From the human T2T-CHM13v2.0 reference genome, Homo sapiens: DNA of 64,000 bases. The translations under genes and the position numbers were made by a program. Below are positions 2,345 through 46,000 of the stretch, in pieces. A model generated the notes under the pieces. That model ran no database searches, was not told the DNA's origin, and saw only the letters and a list, made by a program, of their open reading frames with translations. Positions within the stretch are counted from its first letter, which is position 1. Each line of letters begins with the position of its first letter. The stretch is from NCBI RefSeq assembly GCF_009914755.1, contig NC_060933.1, one strand, 5' to 3'.

Positions 2345-2388
2345 TTTTTCTATCTACTCAGCTAGAGACTACTGAGTAGATAGAAAAA
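2345..2388. repeat. Perfect 17-bp inverted repeat with 10-nt spacer
   Basis: tttttctatctactcag (2345-2361) / ctgagtagatagaaaaa (2372-2388). Confidence 0.95.
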
Positions 2389-3253: not shown

Positions 3254-3406
3254 CTCGAGACTTGCTCCTCCGCTTCCTCTTCCCTGCCGATGTGCTGCGC
3301 AGGGGTGGTTGCAGCTGACCGATCTCGATGGGCGTGTTAGCGCGGAAACTCTCCTTGAACTTCTGCATCAGGGACTCCACTGTCTCCTGAGTCGCCTCAG
3401 CTGCTG
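3254..3406 (-). CDS. ASTN2: Astrotactin-2 internal coding exon (probably exon 4), 153 nt, symmetric phase 1-1
   Basis: Minus strand reads tag|CA GCA GCT GAG GCG ACT CAG GAG ACA GTG GAG TCC CTG ATG CAG AAG TTC...AAG TCT CGA G|gtaggc. Acceptor AG at 3408-3407, donor GT at 3253-3252. The peptide EATQETVESLMQKFKESFRANTPIEIGQLQPPLRSTSAGKRKRRSKSR matches human ASTN2 as recalled. CpG-rich relative to flanks. Confidence 0.93.
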
Positions 3407-3420
3407 CTATAAGGTAGCAA

Positions 3421-3513
3421 TGGGGCTGAGGTTAGGGCTTGAGCCCACCCTCAGCCCCTAGAGCACTGGGGCTGAGGTTAGGGCTTGAGCCCACCTTCAG
3501 CCCCTAGAGCACT
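3421..3513. repeat. 46-bp tandem duplication (2 copies, 1 mismatch), each copy an inverted repeat
   Basis: tggggctgaggttagggcttgagcccacc(c/t)tcagcccctagagcac at 3421-3466 and 3467-3512. Confidence 0.97.
3431..3435 (-). promoter_or_regulatory. Predicted branch point (CTAAC; branch A at 3432, 26 nt upstream of the exon)
   Basis: Plus-strand gttag = minus CTAAC, fits yUnAy at a typical distance. A second copy lies at 3477-3481. Confidence 0.7.
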
Positions 3514-5529
3514 AGACCTGGCCACCCTAATTCCTTGAAACTCCCTCCCTGACCCATTGAAGATATAGAATCAAAACCTTGCAGTCTAACTGCAGATGTA
3601 TCTGTTGGATTACATACTTATGTATTCAACATTTACTACGTTCCAGGTACTGCTCTAGGCCCTTGAGACTAGAGGGCTTGGTCGTGAAATGTGAGACACA
3701 ATTCATTATTCAAGTAATTCTTAGTTCAGTAGGAGACATATCCAGACAATTCTAACATTGTGCAATATTTTTGCAATAGAAGAGTACAAAATTCCAAAGG
3801 ATCACTGAAAAGGGTCATCACACCCATCTGAGAATCAAAATAGGCTTCCAGAAGGAGGCAATATTTAGGATGAGACCTTAAAGATGAGTAAGAATTAGTA
3901 AAGAAAGCAGGATCAGGGTGAGGTTGGACAGACCAGAGAAGACAGCGTCCTGGATGGAAGGAGAAGCATGTGTGATGATCTGAAACGAGAAGGAGCACGG
4001 ATGCTTGAGCATTGGAAAGTAATTTATGGTAGTTACAAGAGAGCTTGCAAAGAGGAGGCTTATGGGAGATGAGATTGGAGTGATAAAGACATCTGGTAGG
4101 CCACATTTAGGAGTATAAATTTTATCCTAATGGCAAAAGGTATCACCAAAAGGTTTTAAACAGAAAATCTATGTGTTCAAATTAAATCACTTTGAAAACA
4201 ATCACTAACTAAAGTATGGAGAATGCAAACTGAAGGAGGAAAGGAGGCCTGGACTGAGGCTTTGGAAGTAGCCAGTCAAAGGCAATGGTGGTCTGAACCA
4301 GGGCAGTGGCAGCGAAGGTGACACAATATCTTAGGAGACACAACCACAGTACTGTGGATATGTCGATCACTTAGCAACATATACCCATTTTATTGAGGGG
4401 ATGTTGAAGCCCCAAAACACAATATATGTCTTGCTCCAAGATAGGAAATGGCAGAGTCAAGCCTTCTAACACCTTGTCCAATATTCGGTTTGCACCAATA
4501 CCTTCCAATGAATTGTTAGTAGCCACATTTCCAAAAAAGTTTCAAAGTTGAAACTGGTAGAAAGTTCAGTACATGGAGAAAGTAAGGTCAGAAGGGCAGA
4601 GAGAAAAAGTTGGAAGATAAAAGGAAAAAAATAACAGAAAAGCTTGAGAAGGAAGGAGGCAACATAAAAGGCAAGAAGAGAAAACCAAAAAGAAGAAAAG
4701 AAAAATTGCTGAATAGCCTCAGTGCCTTTGTTCTGAGAAATTCCCAAAGACAGCCCTGACTTTGAAATCTTCAAACTCATCCCTCCCTCCATCTGTGTCT
4801 CCAGAGGCTGGGAAATTTCTTCTTCAGTTTGAGCTAGCTGCTGTCTGATGCCAAGAGATGGGATGTGCCAACAATTTCTGTTTCTTTGAAGGGGCTTCAT
4901 CAGACTAGACAAAGAAGGCTCCTGAACAACCCAGTACCCATTTCTAAGGCGCTCCTGTTTTCTCAGGGAAGCTTATCAGGTTAGACAGATGTGTCTGCAG
5001 AGTAAGTCAGACCTAGAGGGCTTGTTCTGGTATTGGGTTCTGTGAGAAGTCCCATCTTGAGGGTTATAGGGAAAAGGTATGATTGCTAAGGTAAAAAGAC
5101 AATTGACAATACAAATGAATCATGTGGTGGCATTGGTTTCCTCATCTGTCTCCCTTGCTATCTCTCTCCACAGATATCTTAATTAGGTGTACTTGAAGAA
5201 ACCAAGAAGATTCCAGACATGGGGTCCCTTCTTCAAGCCTGGGATGAAGAATCCTTCAGCTATAGCCTGCAGTATGACTCTGAGAAGCAATGTCATGCCA
5301 AGTTTTGATTCCGTAAACCCAGAGAGAAAAGTGCTTTGCCCAATAGATGGGCTATACTTTGGTCAAAAGTCCAGAATAAGCCACAGTTTGGAATCCTCGA
5401 AGGGAATGACCCACACAGGATCTGTCAATATTCATTCATTCATTCATTTCTCCACTTATTCATTGATTCATTCATTCAACAGAATTTACAGAAAAAAACA
5501 TTACATACCAATGCTGAGAACCAAAGACA

Positions 5530-18493: not shown

Positions 18494-21400
18494 ACTAAGG
18501 TAACAACTATTATTTTATGAATCTACATCTAGAGATTCCTAACTAAGGAAAGAAGACCATGAAGAGGTGTTAACTGGGTGCAAGCCGGCAGTGACATCAC
18601 TTTGCAAAAATGAAAACAAAAAACCCAGAAGAGATTAAAGCATTTGATAAACGTGAACTAAAAGGCAGGTCAGACCACTGACAATGCTTCAAGTCCATTA
18701 TCCTGTGAATTTAAAACTTGAGGTTATTTTTATTCTGTTTTGCAGTAACTGTGGTTTAGTAGTTGTAGAGGAAGATGAAAATCTTAATTTGAAATGTCTT
18801 CTCCTTAGCAGAAGCCTGAAGAAATTCACCTTGCCTCAACATGTATGAGGTTAGGAAGGTGCCACTCCCAACTCCATTTATTCACTCCTCCAGCACATAC
18901 ACACAGACATACAGACATACACCCTCTTGTCCATGCCTCTGGGCTCAAAAACAATTGATCTGATTCGTTATCTAGCTCTCCGCAGAAGAAAGCTGAGATA
19001 CAATAGCAAGTCATCAGCTGTGCAGCAAATTGGCAAGTTTCCACTGGTTTGTAATAAGTTAATGATGCCCAAGAAAGGAAGACATAGACAGGAGGGAAGC
19101 CCACAGCCTCCCACCTGTCTCTTTTCATGGCCAGAACATCTATCCCCTAAGCTGTATTTGAACACAGAGGAGGGAAGCAGAAAGGAGACATGCACATCTC
19201 TAGCAATTAGAGACTGGAAGGAAAAAAGACACATGGATCCAAGTTAGCAGGAAGCCTGGTGGAAGCCAATCATCCTGGTGGCATTTCAGAGTCAGTCCTC
19301 AAAAGAGCCTCATGCAAGGAATTATACCAAGATGAAGTTAAATTAAAGCTGGACTGAGTTGGGCTGGACATCAAAATGAATTCTTCAATTAACTTATATG
19401 ACTCAGGCACTGAAATAAAAATGAAAAGGGGGAGAATATGGACTTCCATATCCAGAAAGCCAAGTCAGATCTATCTGTCTGGGTGACTTTAGCCTTCATC
19501 TGCAAAACAGGGACTGAAGCAACACTTGGATGTTGAGTATGGTATATCAAAGAAGAATGAAAGGTTTTCTTAGGTGGCATACATAAAGATGCAGAAGTAC
19601 AAACTCATTTTCAGTTCAGAAACTGATGAGTTATTTAGTATGACTAGAGTTCAGTTTTCCTATAGGGTTGGTGCTATAGATGAGAAGGAGCGAATGACCC
19701 CATCGTGATGAGGCTTAAATGCCAAGCTACACATTTGAAGTTTAGTCTGTATAACATATATAAGAAGACTTTCATCAGAAGAGTGACACTGTCAGAGATA
19801 TACTTAAGAAAGATCAGTGTAACTATAACTATGGAACAAGGATCTTAGGGAAAAGAATGCATCATGATAATAATGATGAAAAGAGCTGCAATTTATTAAG
19901 CCACATGGCATGTATTGGCATTTAGCACAGTGCCAGTAACTGTGCTAGGCATTTTACCTGAATTTCCCAATTTAATACAACAGTGTAAGGTAAATACTTA
20001 TACAAAATAAAAAAATAGAAAAAATTAAGCCTATAATTAAAGTTGTGCTCAAAGTCTCAATAGTAATTATACGTGTAGTCAGGGTACTAACCCAGTTCCA
20101 CTGCTAGTGACTATGCATTTATTCAAATAAACTGTGCAAGTCCAGATACAAAGATACAGATTTTGACTATAGCAGTATCAAAGGAAATAGAAAACAGGAC
20201 ATGCATTTAGAAAAGATATGTTTAGGGGTTAGAATGGGCAAGAATGAAAGGACTTAGATATGAATTGGAGGAGACAGGAAGAAGTCAAGACTGCATTCTA
20301 ATTTTCCCATTTGGAATGCTATATAAGTATGATTTGAGAGTTAACTATATCCCGATATATCCAGAAGTTGGTTGGATGTTCCCCTTTGCAATTACAGACG
20401 GATGACTTGTCATTGATATGTTCCTTACTATGATCAACTTGTCTACAGAACTAAATCAAAACTTTCACCACAGAAAATTTTAAAATGTCATGGCATGAAT
20501 AAATTTCCACATTTCCCTATCAGTATCAGTGAGTGCATGGCAGAAGGGCATTGGGTGAGGCCACGTCCTAGACTCTGGGATTTTGTCAAGACTAGAAGAT
20601 TCAGGCAGATAGCCAGGAAGAACACTGGTGAAATGTGCAGGGGGGCTTGTGGAAGACTGAACTTGAAACTTTGGTAAACAAAATTTATGCAAATATTTAC
20701 ACTGTCCTATTAAATTTGCTTATCATGAATCTCTCTGTGGCTTTGACCTACCAGGTAAGTCAAATCCTTGTGGTCTCACTGCTTTTCTGGGACAACAGAC
20801 ATTGCACTCACTCTGATCTTCACTGCTTGCCCACCTTCAGCAAAGTCTCCATCCCTTTCTGCATCCTTGTCCTCTTGGATGTACCTGGCCCTCCCTACCT
20901 CATCCTCTCTCCAGTCACAGTCCTCATTCACTTCCAAGCTAATTGTCTCCACTGGTGTATGCAAACGAACCATTTATGGGAAATGCCGTGGAATGTTAAT
21001 TTCATTTGAAATTGGGTAATTGCAAAAAGTGCTTCCACTTTTTTATTATATAGAATGAATAAGTATTGTATTAATAGTGCCATTTCCAATTATGACCACT
21101 ATCGCAGGCCTGTCGTCTGCTAACTGTGGGTTATTTTTCATGGAGCATTTTTCTGAACAGTTTTTTTAAAATCCCCCCTTCTTTGCACCATTGTAATTAA
21201 GATAATGCAGAATAATTATAAAAACATTGGAAGCTCAAATGCCAGCATAGACTATCCAACTAGTGCTGCATGCTTATTCTAATTTCTCAAGCGAAAAAGA
21301 AAAAGTGTTGGAGTCTACTGAGGAAGGCGGATGAAGGTTGATGAAGTCAGCAAGAAATTGGCCAGAACAGCTCAGAAAACCTGGCCAGAGCCCATGTGTG

Positions 21401-42488: not shown

Positions 42489-43061
<573 letters not shown>

Positions 43062-46000
43062 ATGATCTGGAGTATTTCAATTATTCTTCACAGCAATGTA
43101 TAAGCTGAGAATGCTCACATAACTATTTCAGAGATGGGGAAACTGAAGCCCAGAGATGTCAAATAACTTGCCCCAGGTCAAAGAGCTGGTAAGTATCAGA
43201 GCTAAGATTGGGTTCTGGCAAATGTCTCAAATACATTTCATACTGCTGAAATTGCCTGTTTACTCAACTCTCTTACACACAACCATAAACTTGTTGAAGG
43301 TATTAATCCCTCTATAACCTAGCACTTAGCACAGTGACTTCATTCTGTACATGGAGTGTGCACTTTGTAAATGGCCACCGAGTGAACAATACAAGACTCT
43401 CTTCTATTTTATTTTATAGCATGCTAGACAACAGGATAGCACAGTGGCAAAAAACACAGACTCTGGAGTCAGACCCAGGTCCCAATTGTAGCTCTACCAC
43501 TTCCTGGTGCTTAAAGCAGGTCCTGTTTTGCCTGGTCTGTTTCACAGGGCTAATGATGATACCATATGGAAAAATCATGTGTATTAAATAAAGAAATCCA
43601 TAGCAAGTACAAAGCATAGCACTTGGATCTCAATAGACAGTAGATACTCAGTGTTTGTTATAATGGCCGTTATCATTCACTGTGTTCCTTCCCTTACCCC
43701 TTTCTTTCTTTCCTCTCTCTTTCCTGCTCACCTTAAGCAAGAGGCGTCCTCTCAGCAAGACTCGTTTGGGATTCGCAAAAGCTGAGAGGGAGCATGACTT
43801 CTCTGGCCCACTGAGCCCAGTGCCCTCCTTCCCCACCCCATGCTGCCACCTTCCAGCTGTGAAATGGTGTCCCTGCTCAACTGGGCCCCAAAGCTGTCAG
43901 GGGGCTGCCAATTTCACAGTTCACAAGGCTGCTGTTCCCCCCGATTAATGGGGTGCCAGCAGCCATGGGCAGGGCTCTGATACCAGTCATATGGGCTCTC
44001 TCTCCCCTGCCCACACTTCCTGAGGAAAAGAGAGCAGGCCAGCCTCATGCATATTTATGTAGGGAGAGAAATGATTTTGTACTGCATGCCTTCCAAAAAA
44101 AAAAAAAAAATAAGATTTCACCCAAGTCCCAGGCATTTCCCTGAGTGAACTCAGCATGCTTCAGGGAAGAAAACGACACAGACACAGACACACACACACA
44201 CACACACAAACACATACCCCACAGATGCACACATGGCATAATGAAAAACTGAAAACACTTTATATACCACTGATCTGAGCAGAGTGTTCTCACACCAAGG
44301 ATGACCCAGGAGACACAGGAGATATTAAACCCTAGAGCATGGACAGAATTATTTTGAAATTAATCCAGTTCCACCCTATAGCTCTAGGGAAATTAGAACA
44401 GATAAGGTCCAAATGTAGCCGGGCACTCAAGGCCTGCCCCACCACCTCCTAATCACTGCTTTTGTCTACAGCATTCCTGACCTCAGACTAAGCTGTTCTC
44501 TGTTCCTTGTATAAGCAATCACTTTCGGTGGTATATGCCATAGTGGGGCAGAAGAAAAGCTTTCATCTTAGGGCAATCCCAGTCCTTCTGTTCCAGTTAC
44601 AGAACGTCTTAAAAGCCACTTCAGCTTGCAGTGTCTCGGTGCCCCCATCTCTGTGTCCTAGAATAAACTGACCCAGGCTTCCTCACTGTGTTTGAGCCAC
44701 ATTGGCCTTCTAGGCCATTAAGCAAGCCAAGTTTTTATTTCAAGAGACTCTTCCTCATATTGAAACATCACGTTGGGCCCCACAAATACAGACAATTATT
44801 ATTTGTCAATTAAAAAATAAAATAGAACTTTTAAAAAGATCACTTTCTCTGTTCTTCAGTTCATTTGGTTGAACGCTACATACCCTTCTAATTCCAGCTT
44901 AAATCTTCCTTCCTCAGAAAGGCCTTCTTGAACAGCCAAATTGAGGTCAAGTATCCCCTTTCTTCTCCCAGAGCATGCAGTATGTTTCCTTCCTGGCAGC
45001 TTTGTGTTAATTAAATTAGTAATTGTGTGATAAGTTGGTTCAAGTCTCCAGTCTCAAGTCTGATTTTCTCATTAGAGGATAGCATCTCTGAGGGAAAGGG
45101 TCACGCCAGCACTTTCACTGCTCTGTCCTAATGAGTATTTGGTAAATGAATGAATGAATGAATTGCTGAGTAGTTGAGAGAATTAAATAAAGAAGCATAT
45201 AAAGCACCCGATCTATCTGCAGAGGACTTGCTCACAATGCACTATAATAACTAACATTAATTGACCCTTTTTCTTGTGATAAGCACTCCTTTAAGCATTG
45301 TGACATGTATTAATCATTTAGTCTTACATAAATTACATCATTTGTTCTTACAACAACTCGGGTATCCACATCCTTATTGTCTCCATTTTAGAAACGAGGA
45401 CAGTGAGAGGAAGGGGAGCATTTACTAATTTGCCCAAGGTTATACATAGCTAGTAAGTATCAGTAAATTTCAGGAGTTGACCTAGGTAGCCTAGTCCCAG
45501 AGTCCACATTTCTATCCACTACTCTCTAGAAAGATATTAGTTCCATCCCTTCACCTTCCCTCTCAGATATGTTCAGGCTTAGATACCTTGGTTGAAGACT
45601 TTGTCTTCCACAAAGCCTTTCCTGATTTGCCAGCCTCACTCTATTACATCTGAAAACCTACATCCCCCTTTCCCACATCCATGCATAGAGAGCTGGGGTT
45701 ATGAAATGCAGCCCTGATATCAGAATATCCTCTACTGCCCTCCCTCTGGATCTTTTATGGGTGGAGCAAACCTCATTTTCTTGCAATGTGAGGACACAGT
45801 CCAGAAATTGCTTTCTCCTCTGGGGTCCTACAGGGAGACACCCAGCCCTCAGAACCAAGCCAATTTAACACTCAGGAGAACCCTCTCCTCCTGGAATATC
45901 CATCTGACCTCCTTTCTGAGATAGCTACAGGTTAAGAGCCAGAAGAAGGTGTAGAGACCTCACAATCCATCTGCCCACATATAAACAGGCTGAGGCCCAG

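What the first reader, a model, noticed from the sequence alone, without database searches (positions are those of the whole stretch)
3401..3513. Duplicated hairpin burying the branch point of the ASTN2 cassette exon: candidate structural splicing switch
Seen: in pre-mRNA sense (minus), 3458-3422 reads GGGGCUGAGG-GU-GGGC-UCAA-GCCC-UAA-CCUCAGCCCC. This is a perfect 10-bp GC-rich outer stem plus a 4-bp inner stem. The consensus branch point CUAAC (A at -26) lies in its 3' arm, with UAA in the internal loop, and the stem also covers part of the short pyrimidine-rich stretch before the AG. The whole 46-nt unit is duplicated with one mismatch, creating a second branch point at -72 and a second 5' arm that can pair across units. 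Inference: folding competes with SF1/U2 binding and tunes inclusion of the 51-aa exon. The near-identical duplication looks recent, so it may be lineage-specific or copy-number polymorphic and act as a splicing QTL in a neurodevelopmental gene.
Basis: partly seen in the sequence, partly recalled or inferred. Interest (0 to 1): 0.85.

Follow-up and report, generated by a model that had tools for sequence, protein, structure and literature searches.

The report
Duplicated hairpin at ASTN2 exon 4
A very stable, tandemly duplicated RNA hairpin sits directly in front of an alternatively used ASTN2 exon and covers its likely branch point, so it may weaken use of that exon, but nothing here shows that it does.

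Summary
On the minus strand, 3458-3422 is a perfect 10-bp GC-rich stem plus a 4-bp inner stem (-31.1 kcal/mol, z -6.4). It is the most stable of 63,960 41-nt windows in this 64-kb stretch. CUAAC (A at 3432, intron -26) is the only yUnAy motif in the usual branch-point zone. Its 3' end and the first 10 nt of a weak, C-rich pyrimidine tract lie in the 3' arm. The 46-nt unit is duplicated (3416-3513) and is unique in CHM13. The exon (3254-3406) is ASTN2 cassette exon 4.

- At equilibrium the two units are predicted to form one long cross-unit hairpin. It is nearly isoenergetic with two local hairpins.
- Removing one unit in silico changes branch-site opening energy by only about 1.4 kcal/mol.
- Exon 4 skipping also occurs in mouse, so the alternative splicing is old.
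- Of 272 other chr9 3' splice sites, 4-5 are equally structured, and most of those are used in all annotated transcripts.

My best reading is a standing structural attenuator of a weak 3' splice site, a candidate new member of a known kind. Age, copy-number polymorphism, sQTL status and real branch-point use could not be tested here.

The parts
3254..3406 (-). ASTN2 exon 4, a 153-nt in-frame cassette exon. It encodes a cytosolic-loop peptide that ends in KRKRRSKSR.
   Evidence: RefSeq rows: included in NM_001365068.1 and NM_001365069.1, skipped in NM_014010.5. Reading frame. Mouse exon 4 skipping from PMC4587951 and PMC9511766.
3407..3408 (-). 3' splice-site AG of intron 3. It is predicted to lie in a weak 6-bp helix (3420-3415 with 3409-3404).
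   Evidence: Sequence. Folds. P(unpaired) of the AG is 0.09 in the 447-nt context.
3409..3421 (-). The part of the pyrimidine tract not covered by the big stem (AUUGCUACCUUAU).
   Evidence: Sequence. Between branch A and AG there are 17 pyrimidines in 23 nt (7 U, 10 C). The longest pyrimidine run is 4 nt against a control median of 7; 16% of controls have a run this short or shorter.
3422..3458 (-). Proximal hairpin: a perfect 10-bp outer stem (3458-3449 with 3431-3422), a 4-bp inner stem (3446-3443 with 3438-3435), a UCAA loop, and a GU/UAA internal loop.
   Evidence: I2; -31.1 kcal/mol, z -6.43. Lowest of 63,960 windows.
3431..3435 (-). CUAAC branch-point consensus, with A at 3432 (intron -26). 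An AG at 3427-3426 lies 5 nt downstream of the A.
   Evidence: It is the only yUnAy between -8 and -71. Actual branch use was not mapped here.
3459..3467 (-). Linker AGUGCUCUA between the units. It forms the apical loop of the long hairpin. Its AG (3467-3466) follows the distal branch motif and C-tract, which makes a pseudo-3' splice site 59 nt upstream of the real one.
   Evidence: The matching place after the proximal unit reads AU, not AG. A 59-nt extension would shift the frame and meets an in-frame stop.
3468..3504 (-). Distal hairpin, the same as the proximal one except A at 3496, which gives an A.C mismatch in the outer stem. It contains the second CUAAC (A at 3478, intron -72).
   Evidence: I4; -27.3 kcal/mol, z -5.22. 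Six AGs lie between -72 and the real AG.
3416..3513 (-). Tandem array: 46-nt unit, 2.1 copies. The whole array can fold as one hairpin of about 83 nt (3504-3422) in which the distal 3' arm pairs with the proximal 5' arm and the distal 5' arm pairs with the proximal 3' arm.
   Evidence: TRF and direct repeat D1. Long hairpin -68.9 kcal/mol, z -5.40. Middle helix P 0.997, outer helix P 0.77. The unit occurs nowhere else in CHM13 at 3 mismatches or fewer.

Best explanation
This is a unique-sequence, GC-rich 37-nt palindrome at the 3' end of the 72.8-kb intron 3 of ASTN2. It was tandemly duplicated as a 46-nt unit, most simply by replication slippage at a hairpin-forming site.

In the pre-mRNA it folds either as two local hairpins or as one long cross-unit hairpin. 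The two states are nearly isoenergetic. In both, the proximal 3' arm is base-paired. That arm holds the last base of the only consensus branch motif and the first 10 nt of a weak, C-rich pyrimidine tract.

The most likely effect is a standing structural handicap on recognition of the exon 4 3' splice site by SF1/U2AF/U2. Together with the poor pyrimidine tract and a small helix over the AG, it would keep this conserved cassette exon from being constitutive and make its inclusion depend on unwinding.

The duplication probably adds little to that handicap. What it does add is a second fold, a second branch motif and a pseudo-3' splice site.

Shown here: the sequence anatomy, the predicted stability and its rarity, cassette status, and uniqueness in the genome. 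Inferred: folding in cells, use of the -26 branch point, and any effect on inclusion.
For: - Perfect stem and fold statistics. The hairpin is the most stable of 63,960 local windows.
- P(unpaired) of the 3' arm is 0.025 in the 447-nt context with two units and 0.024 with one.
- Opening energy of -31..-3 is 25.8 kcal/mol against a control median of 9.9. Only 4 of 272 controls are as high or higher.
- Last-60-nt MFE is -32.2, and only 5 of 272 controls are as low or lower.
- There is a single yUnAy motif in the usual branch-point window.
- The longest pyrimidine run is 4 nt against a control median of 7.
- The exon is skipped in one RefSeq mRNA and in mouse.
- Proof of principle from the literature: enclosing a branch site in a structured aptamer inhibits splicing and causes exon skipping in vitro and in vivo (PMC2275289, abstract read). 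[quoted passage not shown]
Against: - There are no experimental data of any kind for this locus.
- The exon is in the RefSeq select transcript, so the site is used efficiently enough.
- Of the 8 control 3' splice sites with MFE of -31 or lower, 6 are used by all annotated spanning transcripts. These are SLC34A3 10 of 10, AJM1 1 of 1, FBXW5 4 of 4 and 6 of 6, NDOR1 4 of 4 and CARD9 2 of 2.
- Among 220 controls with at least 2 spanning transcripts, strong predicted structure did not go with alternative use. The fraction used by all transcripts was 0.71 for 24 sites with MFE of -25 or lower, against 0.64 for the other 196.
- The controls come from gene-dense, GC-rich regions with short introns, so they are not a matched set.
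- There is no covariation evidence. The single difference between the units breaks a pair rather than preserving one.
- Human branch points are degenerate, so a non-consensus site outside the stem may be the one used.
Confidence: 0.5

Rival explanations
1. Neutral by-product. The palindrome and its duplication are slippage products in an intron. Helicases and hnRNPs open the stem on nascent RNA, and exon 4 is alternative for other reasons, such as the weak pyrimidine tract or distant regulators.
For: - Equally strong predicted structures sit at 3' splice sites used in all annotated transcripts. Such structure is found at 4-5 of 272 control sites.
- Mouse also skips exon 4, and a mouse intronic SNP about 100 kb away shifts the isoform ratio (PMC9511766, passages). 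Regulation from elsewhere therefore exists.
- The single inter-unit difference disrupts a base pair.
- The palindrome also folds as single-stranded DNA on both strands (-17.2 and -15.8 kcal/mol, z -6.2 and -5.0), which fits a slippage origin.
Against: A 14-bp hairpin of -31 kcal/mol with a 4-nt loop can fold as soon as it is transcribed. It covers the only consensus branch motif next to a weak pyrimidine tract. It is also the single most stable local fold in 64 kb, and it sits exactly at the only coding exon in the window.
Confidence: 0.33
2. The duplication itself is the functional novelty. It creates a two-state fold (two hairpins or one long hairpin), a second branch motif and a pseudo-3' splice site that acts as a decoy. 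Copy number or conformation would then tune exon 4 inclusion.
For: - The two folds are within about 4 kcal/mol of each other (-62.0 against -65.8 in 96 nt).
- The MFE flips with the length of context folded.
- The findpath barrier is about 31.6 kcal/mol, so either state could be trapped (this is a heuristic upper bound).
- The unit junction reads branch motif + C-tract + AG.
Against: - Branch-site burial is almost the same with one unit or two (12.2 against 13.6 kcal/mol).
- The -72 motif has 6 AGs between it and the real AG.
- No annotated transcript uses the pseudo-site.
- No literature on copy-number variation or an sQTL here was found.
Confidence: 0.1
3. The long hairpin (about 83 nt, about 33 bp) is a substrate for a dsRNA-processing enzyme, either Microprocessor cropping or ADAR editing. 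Either would compete with or alter the adjacent 3' splice site. Alternatively, the element is mainly a protein platform: UAGGG occurs three times and UGCU three times.
For: - The long hairpin has a pre-miRNA-like shape. Rfam lists 16 miRNA-family matches out of 19 weak matches over 3418-3506.
- UAGGG occurs at 3529, 3506 and 3460 against 0.09 expected per 134 nt.
- The motif meanings (hnRNP A1, MBNL, Drosha flanking motifs) are recalled, not tested.
Against: - All Rfam matches are far below the gathering score (best 26.8 bits against 100).
- No miRNA is annotated anywhere in ASTN2.
- The motifs are short, and two of the three copies of each are simply the duplication.
- No small-RNA, editing or CLIP data were available.
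Confidence: 0.05

Closest known systems
Branch-site or pyrimidine-tract sequestration by local pre-mRNA structure. Examples: engineered theophylline-aptamer branch-site switches (PMC2275289); the F8 intron 15 structure that hides a pyrimidine tract, and branch sites hidden in stem-loops, as summarised in PMC11802352.
   Same: A stable local structure encloses the branch motif and part of the pyrimidine tract just upstream of an exon whose inclusion is variable.
   Different: No experiment supports this case. The stem (-31 kcal/mol) is not ligand-controlled. It is duplicated, and it has an alternative long fold.
Splice-site stem-loops that balance isoforms (MAPT exon 10 and SMN2 exon 7 5' splice-site hairpins, as described in PMC11802352)
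   Same: The idea is the same: a hairpin at a splice signal holds a cassette exon at intermediate inclusion in a neuronal gene.
   Different: Those hairpins act at the 5' splice site and on U1 binding. This one is at the branch site and pyrimidine tract, and its function is untested.
Intronic tandem repeats associated with splicing (spl-TRs; PMC10078293, search listing and abstract start only). Also the F7 intron 7 37-bp minisatellite that repeats a splice site (PMC1557585, listing only).
   Same: A tandem repeat next to a splice site duplicates splicing signals, here a branch motif and a pseudo-3' splice site.
   Different: There are only 2.1 copies. Polymorphism and any association with splicing are unknown. 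ASTN2 does not occur in the main text of PMC10078293 (occurrence count 0), and its supplementary tables were closed.
Splice-site-overlapping pre-miRNA-like hairpins and mirtrons (recalled from memory, no paper read here)
   Same: A hairpin of pre-miRNA size lies 15 nt from a 3' splice site.
   Different: There is no family match at threshold, no annotated miRNA and no small-RNA evidence. The intron is 72.8 kb, and the hairpin does not end at the splice site.

Membership tests
Splicing-signal-sequestering RNA hairpin | A local structure far more stable than chance | tested here: met
   z -6.43 with 0 of 200 shuffles as stable. Rank 1 of 63,960 windows. Top 5 of 272 (MFE) and top 4 of 272 (opening energy) against other 3' splice sites.
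Splicing-signal-sequestering RNA hairpin | The structure encloses the branch point or pyrimidine tract that is actually used | tested here: inconclusive
   It encloses the only yUnAy motif between -8 and -71, and 10 of the 23 nt between that A and the AG. Real branch-point use was not mapped, and published branch-point tables are in supplements that were closed.
Splicing-signal-sequestering RNA hairpin | The structure forms in cells | not testable with these tools
   No probing data. Only thermodynamic predictions.
Splicing-signal-sequestering RNA hairpin | Disruption changes splicing and compensatory mutation restores it | not testable with these tools
   This needs a bench experiment.
Splicing-signal-sequestering RNA hairpin | Pairing conserved, with covariation, in other species | not testable with these tools
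   No non-human vertebrate genome is reachable. Within the genome there are only two copies, and their one difference breaks a pair.
Polymorphic minisatellite / splicing-associated tandem repeat | Head-to-tail tandem copies | tested here: met
   TRF: period 46, 2.1 copies, 96% matches, score 182.
Polymorphic minisatellite / splicing-associated tandem repeat | Copy number varies among people and is associated with splicing | not testable with these tools
   Only one assembly is available. The searches 'ASTN2 + sQTL' (2 papers) and 'ASTN2 + tandem repeat' (56 papers, 15 listed) showed nothing on this site in titles or abstract starts.
Dispersed repeat / MITE-like palindrome | Other copies elsewhere in the genome | tested here: not met
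   The 114-nt query matched only itself. The 37-nt unit at 3 mismatches or fewer matched only the two local copies. No masked repeat of 100 bases or more lies between 2702 and 6580.
microRNA precursor / mirtron | Match to a curated miRNA family, or an annotated miRNA | tested here: not met
   Best Rfam match is 26.8 bits against a gathering score of 100. No miRNA row within ASTN2 in RefSeq.
microRNA precursor / mirtron | A short intron whose ends are the ends of the hairpin (mirtron) | tested here: not met
   Intron 3 spans chr9:129335407-129408211, which is 72,805 nt. The hairpin ends 15 nt before the AG.

The most novel reading that the evidence does not exclude
A primate- or human-lineage duplication turned a simple branch-point-hiding hairpin into a bistable element: two hairpins, or one dsRNA of about 33 bp. 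The element carries a decoy branch site and a pseudo-3' splice site. [quoted passage not shown] In mouse, an edited intronic Astn2 SNP shifted the same isoform ratio and reduced tameness (PMC9511766). The element would then be a structural splicing QTL in a neurodevelopmental gene.
Probability: 0.08. Interest if true: 0.75.

Novelty: new member of a known kind. Interest (0 to 1): 0.36.

Why it matters
ASTN2 is a neurodevelopmental gene. [quoted passage not shown] What sets that ratio is not known.

This element gives a concrete, cheap hypothesis. One very stable hairpin covers the only consensus branch motif, so a handful of point mutations, or an antisense oligonucleotide against one arm, should move exon 4 inclusion if the model is right.

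If the 46-nt unit also varies in copy number, it would be a natural allelic series. If the stem turns out to be inert, that is useful too. It would show that a -31 kcal/mol hairpin over a branch site can be tolerated at the end of a long intron.

Tried and rejected
- Transposon or dispersed-repeat origin: rejected. There are no other copies in CHM13 and no masked repeat here.
- Known RNA family: rejected. Rfam gives only sub-threshold, generic hairpin matches.
- Exon-looping partner: no copy of either 10-nt arm (1 mismatch or fewer) lies downstream of the exon among the matches below coordinate 12000.
- ASTN1 as an internal comparison: the exon 4 peptide finds no ASTN1 exon. The search returned only the exon itself and a chr3 match at E 1.67, which I did not examine.
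- Binding motifs near the exon: no GCAUG within 300 nt on either side. YCAY and UCUU/CUCUCU are at or below the window rate.
- Cross-species conservation and dating: no tool reaches a non-human vertebrate genome. My only estimate is a hand calculation from 1 difference in 46 nt and a recalled substitution rate of about 0.5e-9 per site per year. It centres near 20 million years, with a Poisson range from under 1 to over 100. 'Recent' is therefore neither shown nor excluded.
- A larger 3' splice-site control set was planned (60 loci), but only 20 loci of 10 kb were obtained.
- Literature: searches found no paper on this hairpin, on a repeat at this site, or on a human sQTL for exon 4. One search listed only 25 of 10,879 papers, so it is not a clean negative. 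Supplementary tables (branch-point maps, spl-TR catalogues, sQTL lists) were closed and may hold relevant rows.

Full report
**What is in the sequence.**

Read in pre-mRNA sense (minus strand), the last 110 nt of ASTN2 intron 3 are, in order:
- a 9-nt linker AGUGCUCUA;
- a 37-nt palindrome;
- the same linker;
- the same palindrome;
- AUUGCUACCUUAUAG, followed by the exon.

The proximal palindrome (3458-3422) has these parts:
- a perfect 10-bp outer stem, GGGGCUGAGG with CCUCAGCCCC;
- a 4-bp inner stem, GGGC with GCCC;
- a UCAA loop;
- an internal loop of GU opposite UAA.

CUAAC occupies 3435-3431. Its second A (3432) is intron position -26.

The distal palindrome (3504-3468) differs at one base, A at 3496 for G at 3450. 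This puts an A.C mismatch in its outer stem. TRF reports period 46, 2.1 copies, 3416-3513, 96% matches. In the register there are two differences in 46.

**The exon.**

Window 3254-3406 is exon 4 of 23. It is included in NM_001365068.1 (the select transcript) and NM_001365069.1, and skipped in NM_014010.5. It is 153 nt, in frame, and its peptide ends in a basic cluster. Intron 3 is 72,805 nt (coordinates).

Two mouse papers report the same event (passages read). PMC4587951 describes frequent constitutive skipping of Astn2 exon 4, giving an in-frame loss of 52 residues in the cytosolic domain. PMC9511766 describes isoforms a and b that differ by a 156-bp exon 4. It reports that an edited intronic SNP, which the authors suggest may influence splicing about 100 kb downstream, shifted the a/b ratio by 20-30% and reduced tameness. 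The alternative use of this exon is therefore at least as old as the human-mouse ancestor.

**Is the hairpin more than chance?**

- The proximal unit folds at -31.1 kcal/mol (z -6.43; 0 of 200 shuffles as stable). The distal unit folds at -27.3 (z -5.22).
- I folded every 41-nt window of the minus strand of the whole 64-kb window. This place is the lowest of 63,960 (-31.3; mean -4.8, sd 3.5). The next distinct place reaches -26.2.
- Perfect inverted repeats of 10 bp or more with a loop of 3-25 nt occur as 18 arm pairs in roughly seven or eight places in the window. This is the only one with 80% G+C arms.
- The unit is not a dispersed repeat. A 114-nt BLAST query matched only itself. The 37-nt unit at up to 3 mismatches matched only the two local copies in CHM13. 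No masked repeat lies here.
- Rfam gives 19 weak matches. Sixteen of them are to miRNA precursor families over 3418-3506, all far below threshold (best 26.8 bits against a gathering score of 100). I read these as a generic long-hairpin shape.

**How it folds with two units.**

With both units present, the minimum-energy fold is not two neighbouring hairpins. It is one long hairpin in which the distal 3' arm pairs with the proximal 5' arm and the distal 5' arm closes onto the proximal 3' arm (-68.9 kcal/mol for 120 nt, z -5.40).

In a 447-nt context the pair probabilities are as follows:

| Helix | Probability |
|---|---|
| Middle cross-unit helix | 0.997 |
| Outer cross-unit helix | 0.77 |
| Each local hairpin | about 0.002 |

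The two states are close in energy, -62.0 against -65.8 kcal/mol in 96 nt. A findpath estimate puts the barrier between them at about 31.6 kcal/mol. This is a heuristic upper bound.

Folding successive 5'-to-3' prefixes gives this order:
- The distal hairpin forms first.
- The minimum-energy fold switches to the middle helix once the proximal inner stem is present.
- It becomes the long hairpin at 3422.
- It returns to two local hairpins when the context ends at 3407.
- It is the long hairpin again at 3390.

The element is therefore predicted to be bistable. Which state forms in cells would depend on kinetics.

**What is buried.**

In either state the proximal 3' arm (3431-3422) is paired (mean P unpaired 0.025). 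That arm holds the final C of CUAAC and 10 of the 23 nt between the branch A and the AG.

The branch A itself is unpaired in the local-hairpin state (0.99 in the one-unit model). It is mostly paired in the long hairpin (0.15).

A further small helix, 3420-3415 with 3409-3404, covers the splice-site AG (P unpaired 0.09).

In the last 200 nt of the intron the only yUnAy motifs are at -26, -72 (its duplicate) and -165. One AG (3427-3426) lies 5 nt after the -26 A. From general knowledge, that is too close to a branch point to be used. Six AGs lie after the -72 A.

The pyrimidine tract is poor. It has 17 pyrimidines in 23 nt, 10 of them C. Its longest run is 4 nt, against a median of 7 in controls.

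**Controls that temper the finding.**

I obtained 20 gene-dense 10-kb stretches of chr9. The 20 stretches hold 275 annotated 3' splice sites with 60 nt of upstream sequence. I dropped 3 that do not end in AG, leaving 272. Their mean G+C (0.588) happens to match the query (0.583).

| Measure | ASTN2 exon 4 | Controls |
|---|---|---|
| Last-60-nt MFE | -32.2 kcal/mol | 5 of 272 as low or lower |
| Opening energy of -31..-3 | 25.8 kcal/mol | median 9.9; 4 of 272 as high or higher |

The ASTN2 site is therefore in the top 2% or so, but it is not unique.

Of the eight control sites with MFE of -31 or lower, six are used by every annotated spanning transcript. Among 220 sites with at least two spanning transcripts, strong predicted structure did not go with alternative use (0.71 against 0.64 used by all). 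The control set is biased towards short, GC-rich introns, so it is not a matched comparison. It still shows that predicted structure alone does not make an exon alternative.

**Does the duplication matter?**

I removed the distal unit in silico, inside a script and without printing the result. P(unpaired) of the 3' arm was unchanged (0.024). The opening energy of CCCUAAC changed from 13.6 to 12.2 kcal/mol, and that of the whole branch-to-tract stretch from 23.4 to 22.0. Thermodynamically, one unit already buries the site.

The duplication adds three things:
- the second fold;
- a second branch motif;
- at the unit junction, a branch motif, a C-tract and an AG (3467-3466).

The last of these forms a pseudo-3' splice site 59 nt upstream of the real one. 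Using it would shift the frame and meet an in-frame stop. No annotated transcript uses it.

The palindrome also folds as single-stranded DNA on both strands (z -6.2 and -5.0). This fits an origin by replication slippage.

**Age.**

One difference in 46 nt gives only a very loose age. My hand estimate with a recalled rate centres near 20 million years, with a range from under 1 to over 100.

**Other readings.**

- UAGGG occurs three times (3529, 3506, 3460) against 0.09 expected in 134 nt. UGCU occurs three times (3511, 3465, 3419) against 0.73 expected. By recall these resemble hnRNP A1 and MBNL motifs, but two of the three copies of each are simply the duplication.
- There is no GCAUG within 300 nt of the exon.
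- No miRNA is annotated in ASTN2.
- The exon 4 peptide has no detectable counterpart in ASTN1, so the paralogue gives no comparison.

**Comparison with what is known.**

Hiding a branch site or pyrimidine tract in local structure is an established way to reduce exon use. An engineered aptamer that enclosed the branch site inhibited splicing and caused exon skipping in vitro and in vivo (PMC2275289, abstract). [quoted passage not shown]

The ASTN2 element fits that kind by anatomy and predicted stability. The defining functional tests could not be done here: branch use, folding in cells, mutational rescue and conservation. I found no paper that describes this element. Supplementary tables that might list it were closed.

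**Verdict.**

A structural handicap on the exon 4 3' splice site is the most likely effect (confidence about 0.5). A neutral slippage product is a serious rival (about 0.33).
- The claim that the duplication itself is a recent, polymorphic splicing switch is untested. It is weakened by the one-unit calculation and by the conservation of exon skipping in mouse.
- This is a candidate new member of a known kind. It has moderate interest and a clear set of cheap experiments to settle it.

Noticed in passing
window 2345-2388: A perfect 17-bp AT-rich inverted repeat with a 10-nt loop lies in ASTN2 intron 4, about 870 nt downstream (mRNA sense) of exon 4. Its 41-nt fold is -23.2 kcal/mol.
   Followed up: no
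window 3456-3482 (minus strand): The junction between the two repeat units reads branch motif + C-rich tract + AG (AG at 3467-3466). This is a pseudo-3' splice site 59 nt upstream of the real one. The matching place after the proximal unit reads AU. Using the pseudo-site would shift the frame and meet an in-frame stop.
   Followed up: partly
window 3404-3420: A small 6-bp helix (3420-3415 with 3409-3404) is predicted to cover the 3' splice-site AG and the first exon bases. P(unpaired) of the AG is 0.09.
   Followed up: partly
window 3456-3529 (minus strand): There are three UAGGG motifs (starting at 3529, 3506, 3460) against 0.09 expected per 134 nt. There are also 12 GGG runs in the upstream 300 nt against 3.5 expected. 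By recall UAGGG is an hnRNP A1-type motif. Binding was not tested.
   Followed up: partly
window 3254-3280 (minus strand): The exon 4 peptide ends in the basic cluster KRKRRSKSR. According to PMC4587951 and PMC9511766 the exon encodes part of the cytosolic loop. What the cluster does was not examined.
   Followed up: no
window 42505-43062: SNORA70C (42927-43062) lies directly beside the RPL10P3 pseudogene (42505-42881) on the same strand, inside an ASTN2 intron. The layout suggests a retroposed fragment of a host gene carried together with its snoRNA. This rests on the annotation only.
   Followed up: no
window 19083-19123 and 43924-43964 (minus strand): These are the next most stable 41-nt local folds in the window (-26.2 and -25.5 kcal/mol), both deep in intron 3.
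   Followed up: no
L025 (G000 chr3:146023662-146023793): A weak match to the exon 4 peptide (E 1.67, 37% identity, one stop inside), most likely chance.
   Followed up: no
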